From the NCBI GenBank assembly GCA_042584005.1, contig JBHOTF010000004.1:4151-68150 (forward strand): a DNA stretch of 64,000 bases, in the 5' to 3' direction. The notes beneath the pieces are model-generated. The model was not told where the DNA came from. It saw nothing but the letters and a program-made list of their open reading frames with translations, and searched no databases. Origin of the DNA: Bacteroidota bacterium. Its GTDB lineage: Bacteria; Bacteroidota; Bacteroidia; Bacteroidales; JBHOTF01. Below are positions 11,699-62,214 of this stretch, piece after piece (positions within the stretch are counted from its first letter, which is position 1; each line of letters opens with the position of its first letter). The position numbers and the translations under genes were made by a program.

Positions 11699-11773
11699 GT
11701 GTTAAGTATTTTAAAATGCTAAATTGCAGTAAACTATGAATTATTTATCTTCCTTCTCAGAAATTTCAGGCTA

Positions 11774-11792
11774 CAAATATATTACAAATTTA
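11774..11792 (-). promoter_or_regulatory. Two adjacent candidate -7 boxes on the minus strand (TATATTTG, TAAATTTG) for folE-fabD
   Basis: The plus strand reads CAAATATA (11774-11781) and CAAATTTA (11785-11792), 76-94 nt upstream of the folE start. Confidence 0.35.
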
Positions 11793-11908
11793 TATTATTG
11801 CACTTAAAACTATAATTATTCATTTATTGGAAATTTTAATAATAATATGATTATTCTTTTGAGCACACAGTAAAATAGACCATTATTATTAATGTTTAAT
11901 TAAACTTT

Positions 11909-11916
11909 TATCTTTG
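11909..11916 (+). promoter_or_regulatory. Candidate -7 box TATCTTTG
   Basis: TAnnTTTG match 65 nt upstream of hldD. No comparable box lies in the 40-nt hldD-lanB gap. Confidence 0.45.
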
Positions 11917-11980
11917 TTATAAAATGGCATTTTTTTTAAGATAAATACTATAGGAATAAAACTTTATTAGTTAATAGAGC

Positions 11981-12946
11981 ATGATAGTAATAACAGGAGC
12001 AGCCGGTTTTATAGGAAGCAATTTGTTAAACAAATTGAACTGCGAGAAATTTTATGATATTGTTCTTGTTGATGATTTTTCAAAAGAAGAAAAAAAAGCT
12101 AACTATTCAGGAAAAAAATATACTGCACTTGTCGATCGTTCTGATTTTATTTATTGGCTGGATTCAAATCATAAAATGGTTCAGTTTATATTTCATATAG
12201 GAGCACGAACTGATACAGCTGAATTTGATATAAAAGTATTTGATAAACTTAACCTCAATTATTCAAAAGAAGTATGGAAAGCTTGTGTAAAATATGGTCT
12301 TCCGCTGGTATATGCATCTTCAGCTGCAACATATGGACTTGGAGAGAATGGTTTTAATGATGATCATGATATTGTTGAAAAATTAGAACCCTTAAATCCT
12401 TATGGTGAATCAAAAAACGATTTTGATAAGTGGGCTTTAAAACAAGTCGAAAAACCATATTTCTGGGCAGGTCTAAAATTCTTTAATGTATATGGCCCGA
12501 ATGAATACCATAAGGGAAGAATGTCGTCAGTAATATTGTCAGCATACAAACAGATTAAAGATACTGGTAAAATGAAATTATTCAGATCGCACAGGCCAGA
12601 TTTTAACCACGGTGAACAAAAAAGAGATTTTATATATGTTTTTGATGTTGTTGATGTAATGTATTTTTTCTTAAATAATAGAAAAAATACAGGGATTTAT
12701 AATCTTGGAACAGGAAAAGCAAGAACATTTAAAGATCTTGTTATTTCTACTTTTACAGCTTTGAAAATTCCGGAGAAAATTGAATATATAGATACTCCAA
12801 AGGATATTCGTGAAAATTATCAATATTTCACTGAAGCAAATATGAGTAAATTACGATCAGCGGGTTATGATAAACCATTTATTAGCCTTGAAAAAGGAAT
12901 TGAGGAATATGTTATTAAATTTCTCCTTCATATGAAATGTCATTAA
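11981..12946 (+). CDS. hldD: ADP-L-glycero-D-manno-heptose 6-epimerase-like extended SDR
   Basis: Collinear with E. coli HldD by eye: MIVITGAAGFIGSN, YASSAATYG, NPYGESK, FFNVYGPNEYHKGRMSSV, YNLGTGKARTF, AGYDKPF. Confidence 0.8.
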   Translation: MIVITGAAGFIGSNLLNKLNCEKFYDIVLVDDFSKEEKKANYSGKKYTALVDRSDFIYWLDSNHKMVQFIFHIGARTDTAEFDIKVFDKLNLNYSKEVWKACVKYGLPLVYASSAATYGLGENGFNDDHDIVEKLEPLNPYGESKNDFDKWALKQVEKPYFWAGLKFFNVYGPNEYHKGRMSSVILSAYKQIKDTGKMKLFRSHRPDFNHGEQKRDFIYVFDVVDVMYFFLNNRKNTGIYNLGTGKARTFKDLVISTFTALKIPEKIEYIDTPKDIRENYQYFTEANMSKLRSAGYDKPFISLEKGIEEYVIKFLLHMKCH

Positions 12947-12986
12947 TCCAATTAAGCTGATATTTTACTTTTCTTATTAATTTATT

Positions 12987-15212
12987 ATGAATGAAAATAA
13001 CTATTCATCATTTGATAAATTTGTTCTAAGAACCCCGTTATTTCCATTTTCATATCTCAAAAAGAATTTATTGCCGGGCGCAGATATCAAGCTGCTGATA
13101 ATTAGAATATGGAAAATTAAACTTGTCAGAGAGGCTGTGTTTCTTGCCAGTCCGGATTTGTTTGAAGAAATTGGTAAAATTATACAGGGGAAGGAGTTTA
13201 AGAAGAAATATATTTGGAGAATTTATATAAGCCTGTTACAATATTTTATAAGAATGTGCTCAAGATCAACGCCATTCGGGCTTTTTGCCGGAGTAAATGT
13301 TGGAAACCTTTCAGAGAAAACCAGTATTGTGTTTGATAATCCTGAAAATATTTATCGACATACACGTTTGGATATGAATTATCTCTGTGCTTTGGCAAGC
13401 GATCTTAACAAGCAAAAATACTTAAGATCTGATCTGAAATATTTTTCCAATAATAGTATTTATAATTCAGGGGATTCATTAAGGTATATTGAATACAGAT
13501 ACGATAAGGGAAAAAGAACACATCATATGGTCAGTATTGACAGGAACCAATACATTGAGAAAATTTTAAGATTTGCTCTCCATGGGGTATTCGGAAATGA
13601 CATTGTAGGTTTGCTTATAGAAGAGGGGATAAATATAACTGAGGCGGAAGAATATATTAATGAATTAATAAACTCGCAGGTTCTTATTTGTGAACTGGAG
13701 CCAGCAATTACAGGTCCTGAATTTTTTGATCAGATACTTGAGATTTTTGATAAATATCAGGGAACAGATATAATAAGATCTTTGTTAGAAGAAGTTTCCG
13801 GTTTATTCAGAGAAATAGATAATAAAGCCAACTTTAACGGTAGGAATATATATAATGAAATTATCAGGAAGTTGGATCTGATTGAAACAAAATATAATAG
13901 GAAGTTCCTATTTCAGACAGATCTTATAAAAAAACCTGTATCCTGTGAAATTAATAAAAGAACAGTCAGGAATGTTTTAAAAGCTATAATTGTTTTAGAT
14001 AAACTTCGACCATCATCAAAAATGCAGAATCTAACTGATTTTGCAAAAAAATATACTCAACGTTATCATGATGTCGAGTTGCCTCTTCTTGAGGTACTTG
14101 ATGTTGAGTCAGGAATAGGATATCCAGTTCACAATAAAACTGATAAAACTGATATTTCCGAATTAATTGATGATATTCAAATTTTTCAAAACAATGAAGA
14201 AAATTATCTGCTATGGGACAAGACGGCAAATTTTCTTATGAGTAAATATCAGGAATGTAATAAGAAAAAGGAGCATATTATGGAGATACACGATTCTGAA
14301 TTGAAAGAATTTATCATGAATCAAAATAGCACTCCAAATAGTTTTTCCACAATGGTTTATTTGAATGAGAAAAGGGAACAAGAATCAGATATAATAATAA
14401 TTGAAAATGTAAGCGGAGCAGGAGCTGCAAATCTTAATGCTCGATTTTGTCATGCAGATGTCAATATGCAAAGCCATGTAGATGAAGTGGTTAAAAAAGA
14501 ACAGCTATTTTTTGGTGATAAAATATTAGCGGAGATTGTTCATTTACCTGAGGCACGAACAGGTAATATCTTATTAAGGCCGGTATTAAGAGATTACGAA
14601 ATCCCCTATCTGGCAAAATCAGGTATTAATAAGAAATACCAGATTCAACCAGGGGAATTGAAAATTAGTGTGAATAAAGAAGGAAGAATAATTCTTAGAT
14701 CGGAGAAATTAAATAAAGAAATTCTTCCAAGGTTAACAACAGCTCACAATTATCCGGTAAGTTCACTGCCTGTTTACAAGTTTTTGTGCGATTTGCAATT
14801 TCAGGAAAATACCTGGAACCCTACCTTTTCATGGGCGCCGTTTAATAATCAATTTGAGTTTTATCCAAGAGTTGTTTATAAAAATGTCATTCTGTCGAAT
14901 GCTTTTTGGAATATAAAAACTGAAAAATTAAAATATCTGAATAAAGTTTCTGACGAAAAATCCAAAAAACATCAATTAACAGAATGGAGACAAAAAAATA
15001 ATATTCCAGTTGAAACAGTTGTTGTAGAAGGTGATAATGAGCTTTATATTGATTTTGAGAATATTCATTATTGCCGCATCTTTTTTGAATTACTAAGAAA
15101 GAGAAAAAGAATAATAATAAAGGAATTTCTTCTTAATCCGGGACAAAAAACTAATAATGAGAATTCTGGATATATTAAACAATTTATTTTTTCTTATTAT
15201 AAAACACAATAA
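12987..15212 (+). CDS. Lanthipeptide/thiopeptide-type dehydratase, N-terminal (glutamylation) domain protein
   Basis: 741 aa. The FDKFVLRTPLFPFS start and overall organisation are typical of Lant_dehydr_N proteins. It is followed after 3 nt by the matching C-terminal domain protein. Confidence 0.75.
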   Translation: MNENNYSSFDKFVLRTPLFPFSYLKKNLLPGADIKLLIIRIWKIKLVREAVFLASPDLFEEIGKIIQGKEFKKKYIWRIYISLLQYFIRMCSRSTPFGLFAGVNVGNLSEKTSIVFDNPENIYRHTRLDMNYLCALASDLNKQKYLRSDLKYFSNNSIYNSGDSLRYIEYRYDKGKRTHHMVSIDRNQYIEKILRFALHGVFGNDIVGLLIEEGINITEAEEYINELINSQVLICELEPAITGPEFFDQILEIFDKYQGTDIIRSLLEEVSGLFREIDNKANFNGRNIYNEIIRKLDLIETKYNRKFLFQTDLIKKPVSCEINKRTVRNVLKAIIVLDKLRPSSKMQNLTDFAKKYTQRYHDVELPLLEVLDVESGIGYPVHNKTDKTDISELIDDIQIFQNNEENYLLWDKTANFLMSKYQECNKKKEHIMEIHDSELKEFIMNQNSTPNSFSTMVYLNEKREQESDIIIIENVSGAGAANLNARFCHADVNMQSHVDEVVKKEQLFFGDKILAEIVHLPEARTGNILLRPVLRDYEIPYLAKSGINKKYQIQPGELKISVNKEGRIILRSEKLNKEILPRLTTAHNYPVSSLPVYKFLCDLQFQENTWNPTFSWAPFNNQFEFYPRVVYKNVILSNAFWNIKTEKLKYLNKVSDEKSKKHQLTEWRQKNNIPVETVVVEGDNELYIDFENIHYCRIFFELLRKRKRIIIKEFLLNPGQKTNNENSGYIKQFIFSYYKTQ

Positions 15213-15215
15213 TAT

Positions 15216-16112
15216 ATGAGCAGTGTAAAACCTGATATTAAGGTACAAAAGTGTTTTATCACTGGCGACAAATGGATATATTATAAGTTATATGCTGGTG
15301 TTAGAACATGTAATAAGCTATTAATTGAATTAATTAAACCTCTAACTAAAAATCTTATTTCCAGATCTCTTATCGATAAATGGTTTTTTATAAGATATGC
15401 AGATCCAGACAATCATATTCGATTAAGAATGCATAGTACTGAAGAAAAACATATTGGAGATATTATAAATAGTATGTATGAAATGTCTAAAAGATTTATT
15501 AATCATCAACAATTATGGAAAGTACAAACTGATACTTATGTGCGTGAAACAGAAAGATATGGGACTGGCAGTATTGAACTGGCAGAAAGTTGGTTTCATT
15601 TTGATAGTGAATTAATTATTAATGTTATTGATAAAGAGCAAAAGAATCCTGATAAAGACCGGGTTTGGTTATTTTCTTTTATAGCAGTGGATAAACTTAT
15701 GGAGGATTTTGGCTTATCTCTAAAAGAAAAATATTCTCTAATAGATTTATTAAACAAATCCTATGGAGAAGAATTCAATATCAACAGAATTTTGAAGAGC
15801 CAGCTTGATAAAAAATACCGTAAAAATAACCAGAGAATAGAACAGCTTCTGGATAGTTTTGATAATCAGCCTATTTCTAAAGAATTTATGAGCTTAATAT
15901 GTAAAAGGTCTGAGAAACAATCAAAAATTGTAAATCAGATATTGTTGTCGGATAAAAATAAATGTTTGGAAGTAGAATTAAATACACTTATTGCAAGTTT
16001 TATTCACATGATGCTTAATCGATTATTCAGATCACAGCAGCGTTTACACGAATTAGTTATTTATAATTTTCTATCAAGATATTATAAATCAAAAATAGCC
16101 AGGAGCAAATAA
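15216..16112 (+). CDS. LanB C-terminal (glutamate-elimination) domain protein, thiopeptide-type bacteriocin biosynthesis family
   Basis: 298 aa. WIYYKLY ... DKWFFIRYADPDNHIRLRMH is the hallmark of Lant_dehydr_C / SpaB_C domains. Confidence 0.75.
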   Translation: MSSVKPDIKVQKCFITGDKWIYYKLYAGVRTCNKLLIELIKPLTKNLISRSLIDKWFFIRYADPDNHIRLRMHSTEEKHIGDIINSMYEMSKRFINHQQLWKVQTDTYVRETERYGTGSIELAESWFHFDSELIINVIDKEQKNPDKDRVWLFSFIAVDKLMEDFGLSLKEKYSLIDLLNKSYGEEFNINRILKSQLDKKYRKNNQRIEQLLDSFDNQPISKEFMSLICKRSEKQSKIVNQILLSDKNKCLEVELNTLIASFIHMMLNRLFRSQQRLHELVIYNFLSRYYKSKIARSK

Positions 16113-16118
16113 ATCAAA

Positions 16119-17417
16119 TTAACTGATTCTGAATATTGCTTTTTTTGCCAGTAAGGTCAGAAATATACCTCTACTGAAAAGAAAAATCAACAAGGCTAGC
16201 CATAATCCGTTATTGCTAAGACTGTTATGGAAAATCAAATATATTGGCATAAATACCAGAAATGTTGCGGCAAACATTGTATTTCTCATCTCTTTTGAAG
16301 CAATTGCACCAATATAAATTCCATCCCAAAGAAAAGCAGGGAAGCTTAATAGAGGAATTAATAATACCCAAAAGAAATATGGTGTAGATTGATCAATTAT
16401 ATTCTGATTATCGGTAAGAAGCCAGAGAAGCTCTTTTCCTGCCACAAAATATATTAATGTAAATAACATTGCAATTGCCAATCCCCATAAGAAAAGAATT
16501 TTTATCAGTTTACTTAATCCTTTATAATTTTTTGCTCCCACATATTTGCCTGTCATAGCTTCTGCGGCATGGGCAAATCCATCAACAAAAAATGAAAAGA
16601 ACATGAAAAACTGTAATAAAAGTGTATTTACTGCCAGAATTGTATCGTTGGTTTTTGCCGAGCTTGCTGTAAAAAAAGAAAAAACAAAAATCAGACAAAG
16701 AGTTCGTAAAAAAATATCAATATTAACTTTGAAAAACTCTCTAAATGCATTCAATTTTAATACTGCTGTTTTTGACCAGTATTTGAATAGTTTTTTATAA
16801 TATTTTATGAAGAAATATAATCCCAGAATAAGTCCGAGATATTGAGCTATTAATGTACCATATGCAACTCCATCAGATTTTAATCCAAATCCAAAAACAA
16901 ATATTACATTAAAAACTATGTTTAAAACATTAACTACAATTGCTATTACCATAGGGGTTTTAGTATTCTGCATCCCTATGAACCAGCCGGTTAGAACATA
17001 CAGGCCTAATGTGGCGGGGGCTGCAAATATTCTAATATAATAATATTGAGCTGCCAGTTCTTCAACTTCTGGTGATCCATCAATAATTATAAAACTAAGA
17101 ACAGCAATGGGTTTCTGTAGTATTATCAGCAACAATCCACCTCCAATTCCTACTATTGCAGCTCTCGATAATGTAAATAAACTTTCCTTAAGATCTCTGT
17201 TGCCAAATGACTGGGCAGTAAAACCGGTTGTACCCATTCTTAGAAATCCAAAGCCCCAGTATAAAAAATTAAATATCATCCCTCCAATTGCAATCGCTCC
17301 AATATAACTCTCTGATTCAAGATGTCCCAGAATTGCAAGGTCTACAATTCCAAGCAATGGAATGGTAACATTTGAAATAATATTTGGAATAGCAAGCCGG
17401 AGAATCTTTTTATTCAT
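16119..17417 (-). CDS. MATE-family efflux transporter
   Basis: 432 aa, about 12 TM segments, MATE-like N-terminus (LRLAIPNIISNVTIPLLGIVDLAILGH). Confidence 0.85.
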   Translation of the reverse strand: MNKKILRLAIPNIISNVTIPLLGIVDLAILGHLESESYIGAIAIGGMIFNFLYWGFGFLRMGTTGFTAQSFGNRDLKESLFTLSRAAIVGIGGGLLLIILQKPIAVLSFIIIDGSPEVEELAAQYYYIRIFAAPATLGLYVLTGWFIGMQNTKTPMVIAIVVNVLNIVFNVIFVFGFGLKSDGVAYGTLIAQYLGLILGLYFFIKYYKKLFKYWSKTAVLKLNAFREFFKVNIDIFLRTLCLIFVFSFFTASSAKTNDTILAVNTLLLQFFMFFSFFVDGFAHAAEAMTGKYVGAKNYKGLSKLIKILFLWGLAIAMLFTLIYFVAGKELLWLLTDNQNIIDQSTPYFFWVLLIPLLSFPAFLWDGIYIGAIASKEMRNTMFAATFLVFMPIYLIFHNSLSNNGLWLALLIFLFSRGIFLTLLAKKAIFRIS

Positions 17418-17568: not shown

Positions 17569-18141
17569 ATGATAAATGAATTAGTAAGAAAAAACCGTAG
17601 TTACAGGCGATTTTATGAGAATCTTCCTATTAACAGGGATATTCTCATAGAATTAATCGAATTAGCAAGATTATCACCTAGTGCAAGAAATCAACAAGCA
17701 CTTAAGTTTATACTTGTGAGTGATGAGGAATTAAATGCAAAAGTTTTTCCGGAAATTACCTGGGCGGGATATCTCAAAGAATGGCATGGCCCTGAAAAAG
17801 GTGAACGACCTTCAGGATATATCATTATTCTTGGAGATAAAGAATGCGGAAAGAATTATGATATTGATCTTGGTATTGCTGCTCAAAGTATTTTATTTGG
17901 AGCTGTTGAAAAAGGTTTTGGCGGCTGTATGATATTGGCTTTTAATAAAAAAAATATAAAAAAAATATTTAATATTCCTGACCGATATGAAACTTCATTG
18001 ATTATTGCTTTGGGGAAGCCTTTAGAAATTGTCGTAATCGATGAAATGAATGAAGAGGGTGATATTAAATACTGGCGTGATGAAAAACAGGTTCACCATG
18101 TACCAAAAAGATCATTAGATGATTTAATAGTTGAATTTTAA
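17569..18141 (+). CDS. Nitroreductase-family flavoprotein
   Basis: RSYRRF and SPSARNQQALKFILV motifs; 190 aa. Confidence 0.8.
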   Translation: MINELVRKNRSYRRFYENLPINRDILIELIELARLSPSARNQQALKFILVSDEELNAKVFPEITWAGYLKEWHGPEKGERPSGYIIILGDKECGKNYDIDLGIAAQSILFGAVEKGFGGCMILAFNKKNIKKIFNIPDRYETSLIIALGKPLEIVVIDEMNEEGDIKYWRDEKQVHHVPKRSLDDLIVEF

Positions 18142-58922: not shown

Positions 58923-59732
58923 TTATTGTCTGTAAGAATGTTGTCTTTTTATTCTACGCCTGAATTCTGAACATATTATCGCTGTTGCTGCGGAAACGTT
59001 TAAAGAATTTATTTCAGCCTCATCTCCAGGAAAAGTGGGAATACTTAGTTTTTTTGTTACTAGTTTTTCTAGATTCGGGTGAATCCCTTTTGATTCATTT
59101 CCCATAATTATAATTCCGGTTTCACTAAGTTTAGTATTATAAATATTCTCACCTTCAAGGAAGGTCCCGTAAATTTGAATCGAATAATTCAGATTATCAA
59201 TCAGAGAATTTATATCTATATAGTGAACTTTTACCCTGGAAAATGATCCCATAGAAGATTGAATAACTTTTGGGTTATAAATTTCTGCTGAATCAGGAGA
59301 ACAAAAAATATTTTTTATTCCAAACCAATCAGAAATTCTGATAATATTACCGAGATTACCAGGATCTTGAATATTCTCCAGAAAAATTGACAAATCATTT
59401 TTCACTTCATTATAATTTATTTTATGATCTGGTAAATGAATTATTGCTAAAACCTGATTAGGCGTTTTTAAGGATGATATTTTTTCGAGTTCTCCGGATT
59501 TAAGATCATAGATTTTTAAATCACTGTTTTGACTGCTTATTGACTGCTGTTTGATCCATTCAGGACAGGCAAATATTTTTTTTATTTTAAAAGGGCTTTT
59601 GGTGTCTTGTTTATTTCGGTGGTAAAGTTCAGCAACTATTTTATCACCTTCTGCAATAAATTCACGATATAAATTTCTGTATTTTTTTATTCTAAGCGAT
59701 TTAATATGCTTGATTTGTTCTTTGCTCAACAT
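58923..59732 (-). CDS. TrmH/SpoU-family RNA 2'-O-methyltransferase
   Basis: DPGNLGNIIRI, IIMGNESKGI and LNVSAATAI SpoU motifs. Confidence 0.8.
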   Translation of the reverse strand: MLSKEQIKHIKSLRIKKYRNLYREFIAEGDKIVAELYHRNKQDTKSPFKIKKIFACPEWIKQQSISSQNSDLKIYDLKSGELEKISSLKTPNQVLAIIHLPDHKINYNEVKNDLSIFLENIQDPGNLGNIIRISDWFGIKNIFCSPDSAEIYNPKVIQSSMGSFSRVKVHYIDINSLIDNLNYSIQIYGTFLEGENIYNTKLSETGIIIMGNESKGIHPNLEKLVTKKLSIPTFPGDEAEINSLNVSAATAIICSEFRRRIKRQHSYRQ

Positions 59733-59868: not shown

Positions 59869-62214
59869 TTGAAGAGCCACAGGAAGCATAATTCAATATA
59901 CAAATCGTTTAGATTTCTAATTTTTATTTTCACAATATTAATTCTTTTTTCATGTAATGTAACCAAACATGTTTCAGAAGACAGCTACCTGTTGAATAAA
60001 ACAAAAATAATTACTGATAATAGTAAGTTTAATATTGATGAAATGAAAGGCTATTTGAAACAAAAGCCCAATAAAAAGATATTCGGAGTTGTAAGATTTC
60101 ATCTGGGACTATATAATTTATCGAAAGTGGGATCATCAGGTGGAATAAGTGGATGGCTACACAAAATAGGTGAAGAACCAATAATATTTGATGAGTATGT
60201 GACGAATAACACTACCCAACAATTAACAAAATATCTGGAAACAAAAGGTTATTATAATGCTATTGTAAGAGATTCTGTTAAGTTGGAAAAAAGAAAAGCT
60301 GAAGTTTATTATATTGTTGAATTAAATCAGCCGAGAATTATAAGAAATCTTAGTTATCAGTATGATAAGGATACTCTGAATGAAGATCTTTGGTCACTTA
60401 TTCTTGCTGACACATCTACCTTTCAGGTAAAGGCAGGAAAGATAGAAGACAGGGAAATTTTTGAAAATGATAGAGAAAGAATAACTGCAATTGCAAAAAA
60501 CAATGGCTATTATAAATTTTCCAAAGATTATGTTCAATATATAGTTTATTATAGTTTGTCAAATAATCTGGTTGATGTTTCAGTCATTATTGGTAATGTG
60601 CAGGGAGATACCATTAATGGAGGTAAACATTTATTATATCATGTCAGGGAAATAAGCTTTGAAACTAACTACGATCCTAAAACTGTTCTTATGGATGAGA
60701 ACACTATAATAAATGCTGATACAATTGTTCAAGAAGAAATTAAATTTATTTATAATGACAAATTAAATATTAAACCTAATGTACTTATTGAAACTAACTA
60801 TATAAAGAAAGGCAAACTCTATAATTATTACGATGTTGAGCAAACTTCCAAAAATCTTGGTTCTCTTGGAGTATTTAAAGGAAACCCTGGTATTTATTTT
60901 CAGGAAATTCCCGATTCATCAGGAACCAGTTTAGGGTCAACTGATCTTGAATGTATTATTCAACTGACACCGCATAAATCTCAAGAACTGGTTTATGCTC
61001 TTGACGGAACCCATTCAAATGGCAATTTGGGCATTGCTGGTAATTTATCATATAAACACAGGAACCTTTTTAGGGGTGCTGAAAGTTTTGATCTTAAATT
61101 TATTGGTGCTGTTGAAATGATTAATGATAATGATAACAACCTGGATAAAATAATAAAATACGGACTTGAAGCAACAATTAATTCCCCCAAATTTTTTCTA
61201 CCATTCAGAATGGATAATTTTTTCAAAAGATTCCATCCAAAAACATCATTAAACTTTGTATACAATTTTCAAAAAAGGCCGGATTACACTCGTCTTATTA
61301 CTAACCTGAATTTTGGATATTTATGGAATAGTACAGCTTACATAAGCCATATTGTTAATCCTATTGAATTTAATTTTGTTAATGTTACAGATATCAGTAG
61401 TAATTTTAGTGATATCATTAAAGGAACATATATCGAAAATTCATTTAAAACACACCTTGTTTCGGTTTCAAGATATAGTATAGAATTTAATAATTTTCAA
61501 ACAAACAAAAATGCAGATCATTCTTTTTTTCGAATAAATCTTGAATCAGGAGGGAATTTGATTACAGGCTTTAATAAAATCATTAATTCAAAAAAAACAG
61601 AAAATTCATACCAATTATTTGGCACCCGATATGCGCAATTTGTGAAAACAGATATTGAGCTTCGTAGATATAAGTGGCTTAATGAATCAAGTTCAATAGT
61701 TGGCAGAGTCTTTATTGGCGCAGGTTTGCCTTATGGTAATATGAATGTGATGCCGTTTGAAAAGAAATATTATTCAGGAGGTGCAAATGGAATAAGAGCA
61801 TGGCAGGCAAGATCTTTAGGCCCTGGATCCTATGTTATGGATGAAAGTGAAAGTAAGGGGTTTTATCCAAACCAATTGGGTGATATTAAGATCGAATTAA
61901 ACCTTGAATACAGATTTGACCTTTTTTGGAAACTTGAAGGAGCTGTTTTCCTTGATGCAGGAAATATATGGGCAATTAATAATTCGGACGATAGAGAAGG
62001 ATCACTTTTTAAATTAAATAGTTTTTACAAAGAAATTGCGGTTGGTACAGGACTTGGAGCAAGAGTGGATTTTCGTTTTTTTCTGCTCCGCTTAGATGTT
62101 GGCTATAAACTGAGAGATCCTGCATATCCGTTGAGTAACAGATGGGTCCCTGGTAATGGAAAATTTCAGTGGAACCATCTGATGTTGAATCTTGGGATTG
62201 CTTATCCATTTTAA
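59869..62214 (+). CDS. BamA/TamA-family Omp85 outer-membrane protein (lipoprotein-type signal)
   Basis: TTG start, signal with LILFSC, POTRA-like N-terminal half, YSGGANGIRAW motif. Barrel ends in ...LGIAYPF. Confidence 0.7.
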   Translation: MKSHRKHNSIYKSFRFLIFIFTILILFSCNVTKHVSEDSYLLNKTKIITDNSKFNIDEMKGYLKQKPNKKIFGVVRFHLGLYNLSKVGSSGGISGWLHKIGEEPIIFDEYVTNNTTQQLTKYLETKGYYNAIVRDSVKLEKRKAEVYYIVELNQPRIIRNLSYQYDKDTLNEDLWSLILADTSTFQVKAGKIEDREIFENDRERITAIAKNNGYYKFSKDYVQYIVYYSLSNNLVDVSVIIGNVQGDTINGGKHLLYHVREISFETNYDPKTVLMDENTIINADTIVQEEIKFIYNDKLNIKPNVLIETNYIKKGKLYNYYDVEQTSKNLGSLGVFKGNPGIYFQEIPDSSGTSLGSTDLECIIQLTPHKSQELVYALDGTHSNGNLGIAGNLSYKHRNLFRGAESFDLKFIGAVEMINDNDNNLDKIIKYGLEATINSPKFFLPFRMDNFFKRFHPKTSLNFVYNFQKRPDYTRLITNLNFGYLWNSTAYISHIVNPIEFNFVNVTDISSNFSDIIKGTYIENSFKTHLVSVSRYSIEFNNFQTNKNADHSFFRINLESGGNLITGFNKIINSKKTENSYQLFGTRYAQFVKTDIELRRYKWLNESSSIVGRVFIGAGLPYGNMNVMPFEKKYYSGGANGIRAWQARSLGPGSYVMDESESKGFYPNQLGDIKIELNLEYRFDLFWKLEGAVFLDAGNIWAINNSDDREGSLFKLNSFYKEIAVGTGLGARVDFRFFLLRLDVGYKLRDPAYPLSNRWVPGNGKFQWNHLMLNLGIAYPF

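What the first reader, a model, noticed from the sequence alone, without database searches (positions are those of the whole stretch)
12987..16112. Orphan split LanB-type peptide dehydratase with no cyclase, peptidase-exporter or visible precursor
Two ORFs 3 nt apart look like the two halves of a class I lanthipeptide/thiopeptide dehydratase. The 741-aa protein resembles the tRNA-Glu-dependent glutamylation domain. The 298-aa protein carries the WFFIRYADPDNHIRLR elimination-domain hallmark. I see none of the usual partners within 10 kb on either side. Missing are a LanC cyclase, YcaO, a pyridine synthase, a C39-peptidase ABC exporter, a LanP and any Ser/Thr/Cys-rich precursor ORF of 60 aa or more. 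The neighbours are housekeeping genes (folE, fabD) plus an hldD-like epimerase, a convergent MATE pump and a small nitroreductase. The pair therefore either acts on a remotely encoded or very short precursor, makes dehydro-amino-acid peptides without enzymatic cyclisation, or has a non-RiPP substrate.
Basis: partly seen in the sequence, partly recalled or inferred. Interest (0 to 1): 0.7.

Follow-up and report, generated by a model that had tools for sequence, protein, structure and literature searches.

The report
Conserved stand-alone split lanthipeptide dehydratase
Two adjacent genes encode an intact two-piece lanthipeptide-type peptide dehydratase that has been kept, with no substrate, cyclase or exporter gene nearby, at one housekeeping site in five related uncultured Bacteroidota lineages, so it probably works on peptides encoded elsewhere.

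Summary
ORF 12987-15212 is a full-length LanB glutamylation domain (PF04738, E 1e-134). ORF 15216-16112 is the elimination domain (PF14028 4e-69; TIGR03891).

All residues shown to be essential in NisB are present, and the predicted fold matches MadB, MibB and NisB (TM 0.80-0.84). The whole 64-kb window has no LanC, no leader-type precursor and no C39 exporter.

The pair is not a one-off remnant. Five lineages carry it at the same site (fabD-folE / hldD-[FISUMP lipoprotein]-lanB_N-lanB_C / MATE / nitroreductase). Their LanB proteins are 40-63% identical, and the clade has 200/200 bootstrap support. It nests among canonical Bacteroidota class I clusters, where LanC sits a median 4 nt from LanB in 63 of 71 loci.

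The pair evolves 2-4 times faster than its neighbours but is under purifying selection. It has no promoter box of its own and is probably co-transcribed with hldD.

Best reading: a functional Glu-tRNA-dependent Ser/Thr dehydratase acting in trans on precursors encoded elsewhere. A new, non-RiPP substrate is not excluded. The rest of the genome could not be searched. I rate it a new variant of a known kind, of moderate interest.

The parts
11909..11916 (+). Putative Bacteroidota -7 promoter box (TATCTTTG, TAnnTTTG type) upstream of hldD. It is the only such + strand box between folE and lanB_N.
   Evidence: Pattern scan. The block CTTTTATCTTTG is invariant in the window, L001, L003 and L092. 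No + strand box lies in 11917-12986, and no terminator-like site lies between hldD and lanB_N. Promoter function is inferred, not shown.
11981..12946 (+). hldD (ADP-glyceromanno-heptose 6-epimerase), the upstream gene of the probable operon. It ends 40 nt before lanB_N.
   Evidence: TIGR02197 364 bits (cut-off 274.6) and PF01370. It is 71-72% identical in the syntenic loci. Homologues at 72% identity in three other lineages have no LanB beside them, so the link is clade-specific.
12987..15212 (+). lanB_N: glutamylation domain of a split class I LanB dehydratase (741 aa). Catalytic residues are R89, R93, T95, D129, D312 and R486.
   Evidence: PF04738 E 9.9e-135. Alignment to NisB 4wd9 gives the equivalents of R83/R87/T89/D121/D299/R464, each invariant in 162 relatives. 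AF2 model has pLDDT 81 and pTM 0.82. Foldseek TMq is 0.84 to MadB, 0.82 to MibB and 0.80 to NisB.
13434..13691 (+). Region encoding the RRE-like leader-binding element (about residues 150-235: beta strands 151-185, helices 188-229).
   Evidence: The element is confidently modelled (10-residue block pLDDT 72-91). It aligns to the MadB region that holds the RRE, whose regulatory loop is residues 164-179 (PMC12241602). Only conservative clade-specific changes are seen here: V184I, A197S, F223Y. Leader binding itself was not tested.
15216..16112 (+). lanB_C: glutamate-elimination domain (298 aa). Catalytic residues are R71, E111, R114 and H264.
   Evidence: PF14028 4.3e-69 and TIGR03891 219.6 bits. 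A profile alignment to NisB gives R786, E823 and R826; the H961 equivalent was assigned by hand from the motif IHMMLNR versus NisB IIHVHNNRL, because HMMER misaligned that end. All are invariant in 149 relatives.
16119..17417 (-). Convergent DinF-like MATE transporter. It is a neighbour and is not shown to belong to the system.
   Evidence: PF01554 and TIGR00797. It is syntenic in all orphan loci that extend this far and 72-75% identical there. My MATE HMM finds nothing beside any of about 160 canonical LanB loci.
17569..18141 (+). Small nitroreductase-family protein. It is a neighbour and is not shown to belong to the system.
   Evidence: PF00881. The SagB model scores only 15.6 bits against a cut-off of 78.4. 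It is one of three nitroreductase paralogues in the window and is absent beside canonical LanB loci.

Best explanation
The pair is a functional, vertically inherited split class I LanB dehydratase. The ancestral cluster partners (precursor genes, LanC, peptidase or exporter) are no longer next to it. It is probably transcribed from the hldD promoter as hldD-lanB_N-lanB_C. By analogy with NisB and MadB, LanB_N binds a leader-bearing peptide through its RRE-like element and uses Glu-tRNA(Glu) to esterify Ser/Thr side chains. LanB_C then eliminates glutamate to leave dehydroalanine or dehydrobutyrine. Because nothing in 64 kb can serve as substrate, the most likely substrates are leader-bearing precursor peptides encoded elsewhere in the genome, with or without a remote LanC. 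That would make this a cluster split by rearrangement, with the dehydratase acting in trans. Shown here: gene identity, intact catalytic residues, fold, absence of local partners, conserved synteny, monophyly and purifying selection. Inferred: co-transcription with hldD, catalytic activity, and the existence and location of the substrate.
For: Identity and integrity: the HMM hits; all 6 glutamylation and 4 elimination residues that are essential in NisB are present and invariant across relatives; the fold has TM 0.80-0.84 to lanthipeptide LanBs against 0.61-0.64 to the thiopeptide and goadsporin split enzymes TbtB and GodF. Only 7 of 191 columns that are >=80% conserved in canonical relatives carry clade-specific substitutions, all conservative, and the RRE-like element is confidently modelled. 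This argues for a canonical type of substrate. Retention: five lineages (window, L001, L003, L092, L094) carry the pair at the same site with ORFs of 741-743 aa. The clade has 200/200 NJ bootstrap support. pN is 0.32-0.41 against a saturated pS of about 0.7. Ancestry: the nearest outgroups are complete clusters with NF038153/PF28317 precursors, LanC, S41 peptidase and C39-ABC. In 63 of 71 well-flanked relatives LanC lies a median 4 nt from LanB. The orphan state therefore looks like a cluster cut just upstream of lanB_N. Operon: a 40-nt spacer, no terminator, no -7 box of its own, and tight or overlapping junctions in all lineages.
Against: No remote precursor or LanC was found, because the rest of the genome could not be searched. 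All lineages are uncultured and only fragments are held. In all canonical loci examined the LanB sits beside its own LanC and precursors, and I know of no trans-acting class I LanB in Bacteroidota. The pair evolves 2-4 times faster than its neighbours (dN 0.42-0.59 against 0.10-0.25). The clade matches the canonical consensus less well everywhere, most of all in the RRE region and the C-terminus (z about -2). One lineage (L092) has Ala at the position of NisB T89, unique among 167 sequences. G485A lies next to catalytic R486. Together these hint at relaxed or shifted constraint. Expression from a housekeeping LPS-sugar operon is unusual for a RiPP enzyme.
Confidence: 0.5

Rival explanations
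1. Co-opted enzyme with a non-canonical substrate. After losing LanA and LanC, the dehydratase was retained because it installs dehydro-amino acids (or only glutamyl esters) on a different target, for example a cell-envelope protein, a lipoprotein or a leaderless peptide. It would then be a housekeeping-type modification expressed together with hldD.
For: The pair sits in a constitutive-looking operon with an LPS heptose gene, and ancestrally with a FISUMP surface-lipoprotein gene (present in L003, L092 and L094). No RiPP gene is present in 64 kb. Divergence from the canonical consensus is greatest in the RRE region. There is a clade-specific LG-to-NA change next to catalytic R486. Two unrelated lineages also have partner-less LanBs in non-RiPP contexts (L098, L158).
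Against: Clade-specific changes are few and conservative (7 of 191), and the RRE fold is retained. The FISUMP gene was lost in the window and in L001 while LanB was kept. hldD homologues in other lineages have no LanB. To my knowledge no LanB with a protein or non-peptide substrate is known.
Confidence: 0.2
2. LanC-independent peptide maker. The pair dehydrates remote precursors, but the genome has no LanC at all. The products would be linear dehydropeptides or spontaneously cyclised peptides.
For: A LanC-less clade exists in the same family (Aquimarina, L054/56/59/72/78/79). Where examined (L054 only) it keeps GG-leader peptides, a C39-ABC exporter and HlyD. So this family can operate without an adjacent cyclase.
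Against: L054 keeps its peptides and exporter next to LanB, whereas the window clade keeps nothing. The presence or absence of LanC elsewhere in the genome is untested.
Confidence: 0.13
3. Non-functional remnant of a degraded lanthipeptide cluster that has not yet decayed.
For: All partners are missing. These are the fastest-evolving genes of the syntenic block. L092 carries an Ala substitution at the NisB T89 position.
Against: Five lineages are separated by saturated synonymous divergence and by 15-35% amino-acid change in housekeeping neighbours, yet all keep uninterrupted ORFs of 741-743 aa (LanB_N) and about 300 aa (LanB_C; L094's copy is cut by the contig end) in a genome of about 30% GC. 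pN is well below pS. Every catalytic residue is intact in the window. 92-97% of the columns that are >=95% conserved are retained.
Confidence: 0.05
4. The pair forms a minimal functional module with the neighbouring MATE exporter and the nitroreductase-family flavoprotein (modification plus export).
For: lanB_C, MATE and nitroreductase are adjacent in the four lineages whose contigs reach that far. MATE exporters occur in some RiPP clusters (NCBIfam WgkD and GntT models give weak matches).
Against: The co-occurrence cannot be separated from clade-wide synteny of the whole 20-kb block. MATE is convergent, and the nitroreductase has its own conserved promoter box. Both evolve at housekeeping rates. 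Neither occurs beside any of about 160 canonical LanB loci. The nitroreductase is not SagB-type (15.6 bits against 78.4), and a module would still lack a substrate gene.
Confidence: 0.05

Closest known systems
Bacteroidota class I lanthipeptide clusters with split LanB (pinensin type; LxLxKx5L-GG leaders, NF038153/PF28317 precursors)
   Same: The two-polypeptide LanB architecture and length are the same, as are the catalytic residues. The window pair nests phylogenetically among these clusters at 36-44% identity, including a Chitinophaga pinensis locus, L087. Split LanB in pinensin-type clusters is described in PMC7268733.
   Different: Those clusters carry precursors, LanC (median 4 nt from LanB) and usually a C39-ABC or S41 peptidase. 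The window clade has none of these and sits inside a housekeeping operon.
Full-length LanB dehydratases MadB, NisB and MibB (PDB 9G04/9G05, 4WD9, 5EHK)
   Same: The fold matches (TMq 0.80-0.84). All residues essential for glutamylation and elimination are shared, and an RRE-like leader-binding element is present. The MadB glutamylation domain is residues 1-741, exactly the length of the window's LanB_N.
   Different: Those enzymes are single polypeptides encoded next to LanA, LanC and LanT. Sequence identity is only 18-22%.
Thiopeptide and goadsporin split LanBs (TbtB/TbtC, GodF)
   Same: Glutamylation and elimination are on separate polypeptides, and TIGR03891 hits the C-terminal protein.
   Different: Structural similarity is clearly lower (TMq 0.61-0.64). 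No YcaO, cyclodehydratase or [4+2] enzyme is found among the 57 window ORFs submitted to Pfam. The elimination residues are retained, so the second protein is an eliminase and not a pyridine synthase.
LanC-less Aquimarina split-LanB loci (L054 and relatives)
   Same: They belong to the same LanB family, are split, and have no LanC within 10 kb.
   Different: L054, the one locus examined in detail, keeps class IIb-like GG-leader peptides, a C39-ABC exporter and HlyD beside LanB.
Trans-acting lanthipeptide synthetases with scattered precursors (ProcM and the prochlorosins, class II)
   Same: They set a precedent for one synthetase serving precursors encoded at distant loci (PMC10783134 abstract; otherwise my own knowledge).
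   Different: That is a different enzyme class (LanM, ATP-dependent, with a fused cyclase) in a different phylum. No equivalent has been reported for class I LanB, as far as my searches show.

Membership tests
Class I LanB dehydratase, glutamylation domain (PF04738) | Full-length match to the family HMM above the curated cut-off | tested here: met
   450.6 bits against a cut-off of 28, covering profile positions 4-643 of 649.
Class I LanB dehydratase, glutamylation domain (PF04738) | Residues essential for glutamylation in NisB (R83, R87, T89, D121, D299, R464) | tested here: met
   The window has R89, R93, T95, D129, D312 and R486, each invariant in 162 relatives. That these residues are essential in NisB is my recollection of the NisB mutagenesis literature, not checked here.
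Class I LanB dehydratase, glutamylation domain (PF04738) | Fold of the lanthipeptide LanB glutamylation domain, including the RRE-like leader-binding element | tested here: met
   AF2 pLDDT 81. TMq is 0.84 to MadB, 0.82 to MibB and 0.80 to NisB. A wHTH-like element is modelled at residues 150-235. This rests on a prediction only.
Class I LanB dehydratase, glutamylation domain (PF04738) | Glu-tRNA(Glu)-dependent glutamylation of Ser/Thr in a leader-bearing peptide | not testable with these tools
   This needs biochemistry. No tRNA gene lies in the window.
LanB elimination domain (PF14028 / TIGR03891) | HMM match above the cut-off, plus the elimination residues R786, E823, R826 and H961 of NisB | tested here: met
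   233.9 bits (cut-off 24.4) and 219.6 bits (cut-off 48.45). The window has R71, E111, R114 and H264 (the H961 equivalent was assigned by hand from the motif), invariant in 149 relatives.
Class I lanthipeptide biosynthetic gene cluster | LanA precursor gene(s) with a recognisable leader next to the synthetase | tested here: not met
   A leader HMM that finds 129 peptides in 59 related loci scores no better than E 0.83 in the window and in L001-L005. There is no conserved small ORF.
Class I lanthipeptide biosynthetic gene cluster | LanC cyclase (PF05147) in the cluster | tested here: not met
   There is no hit in six frames of the 64-kb window or of the syntenic loci. By contrast 63 of 71 relatives have LanC within 7 kb. 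The rest of the genome was not testable.
Class I lanthipeptide biosynthetic gene cluster | Leader peptidase and/or exporter (C39-ABC, LanP, S41) | tested here: not met
   None is found among the 57 window ORFs of >=110 aa submitted to Pfam. Two terminal ORFs (58923-59732, 59869-62214) were not submitted.
Thiopeptide / LAP-type split LanB system | Co-located YcaO cyclodehydratase, azoline dehydrogenase and [4+2] pyridine synthase | tested here: not met
   There are no YcaO or SagB-type hits: the nitroreductase scores 15.6 bits against the SagB cut-off of 78.4. The fold is closer to lanthipeptide LanBs than to TbtB.
PEARL / small LanB (peptide aminoacyl-tRNA ligases) | A glutamylation-like domain without an elimination partner | tested here: not met
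   An intact elimination-domain gene follows 3 nt downstream. The pair is therefore a complete dehydratase and not a PEARL.

The most novel reading that the evidence does not exclude
The dehydratase has been domesticated. It would no longer be part of any lanthipeptide pathway, and would instead install dehydro-amino acids (or glutamyl esters) on a cellular protein or envelope component, as a constitutive modification co-expressed with LPS heptose synthesis. To my knowledge that would be the first LanB with a non-RiPP, housekeeping role.
Probability: 0.12. Interest if true: 0.85.

Novelty: new variant of a known kind. Interest (0 to 1): 0.45.

Why it matters
Genome-mining tools define class I lanthipeptide clusters by LanB, LanC and LanA lying together. 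Here is a clade in which an intact LanB has been kept for a long time with none of them nearby. If it acts in trans, these genomes hold split clusters that rule-based mining would miss or mis-score, and the precursors of this LanB remain to be found. If there is no LanA or LanC anywhere, a tRNA-dependent dehydratase has been recruited to a new substrate. That would widen the known uses of this chemistry beyond natural-product biosynthesis. Either outcome can be tested with complete genomes and a simple co-expression assay.

Tried and rejected
- **GTDB scan with the single protein:** the first genome-contig scan, with the single LanB_N protein, found nothing.
- **Metagenome scan:** it added only one more clade member, L094.
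- **Local precursor search:** I looked for one with a self-trained leader HMM, with S/T/C-rich small ORFs of >=15 aa in all intergenic gaps, and with alignments of the intergenic regions. Nothing was found. The 23-aa ORF at 11736-11807 is not conserved, and it overlaps the conserved motif that I read as the folE -7 promoter box.
- **hldD as a partner:** three hldD homologues at 72% identity in other lineages lack LanB, so the link is clade-specific.
- **MATE and nitroreductase as partners:** they are absent from about 160 canonical loci.
- **Phage defence:** PADLOC gives no LanB hit.
- **Thiopeptide reading:** there is no YcaO, and structural similarity to TbtB is lower.
- **Pseudogene reading:** rejected because the ORFs are intact in five lineages and pN is well below pS.
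- **dN/dS:** exact values could not be obtained because dS is saturated in every pair.
- **Walking beyond the window:** the protein at the window's 3' end is not on record. The NCBI contig of the same organism ends inside lanB_N.
- **Literature:** searches found no description of such orphan LanBs.
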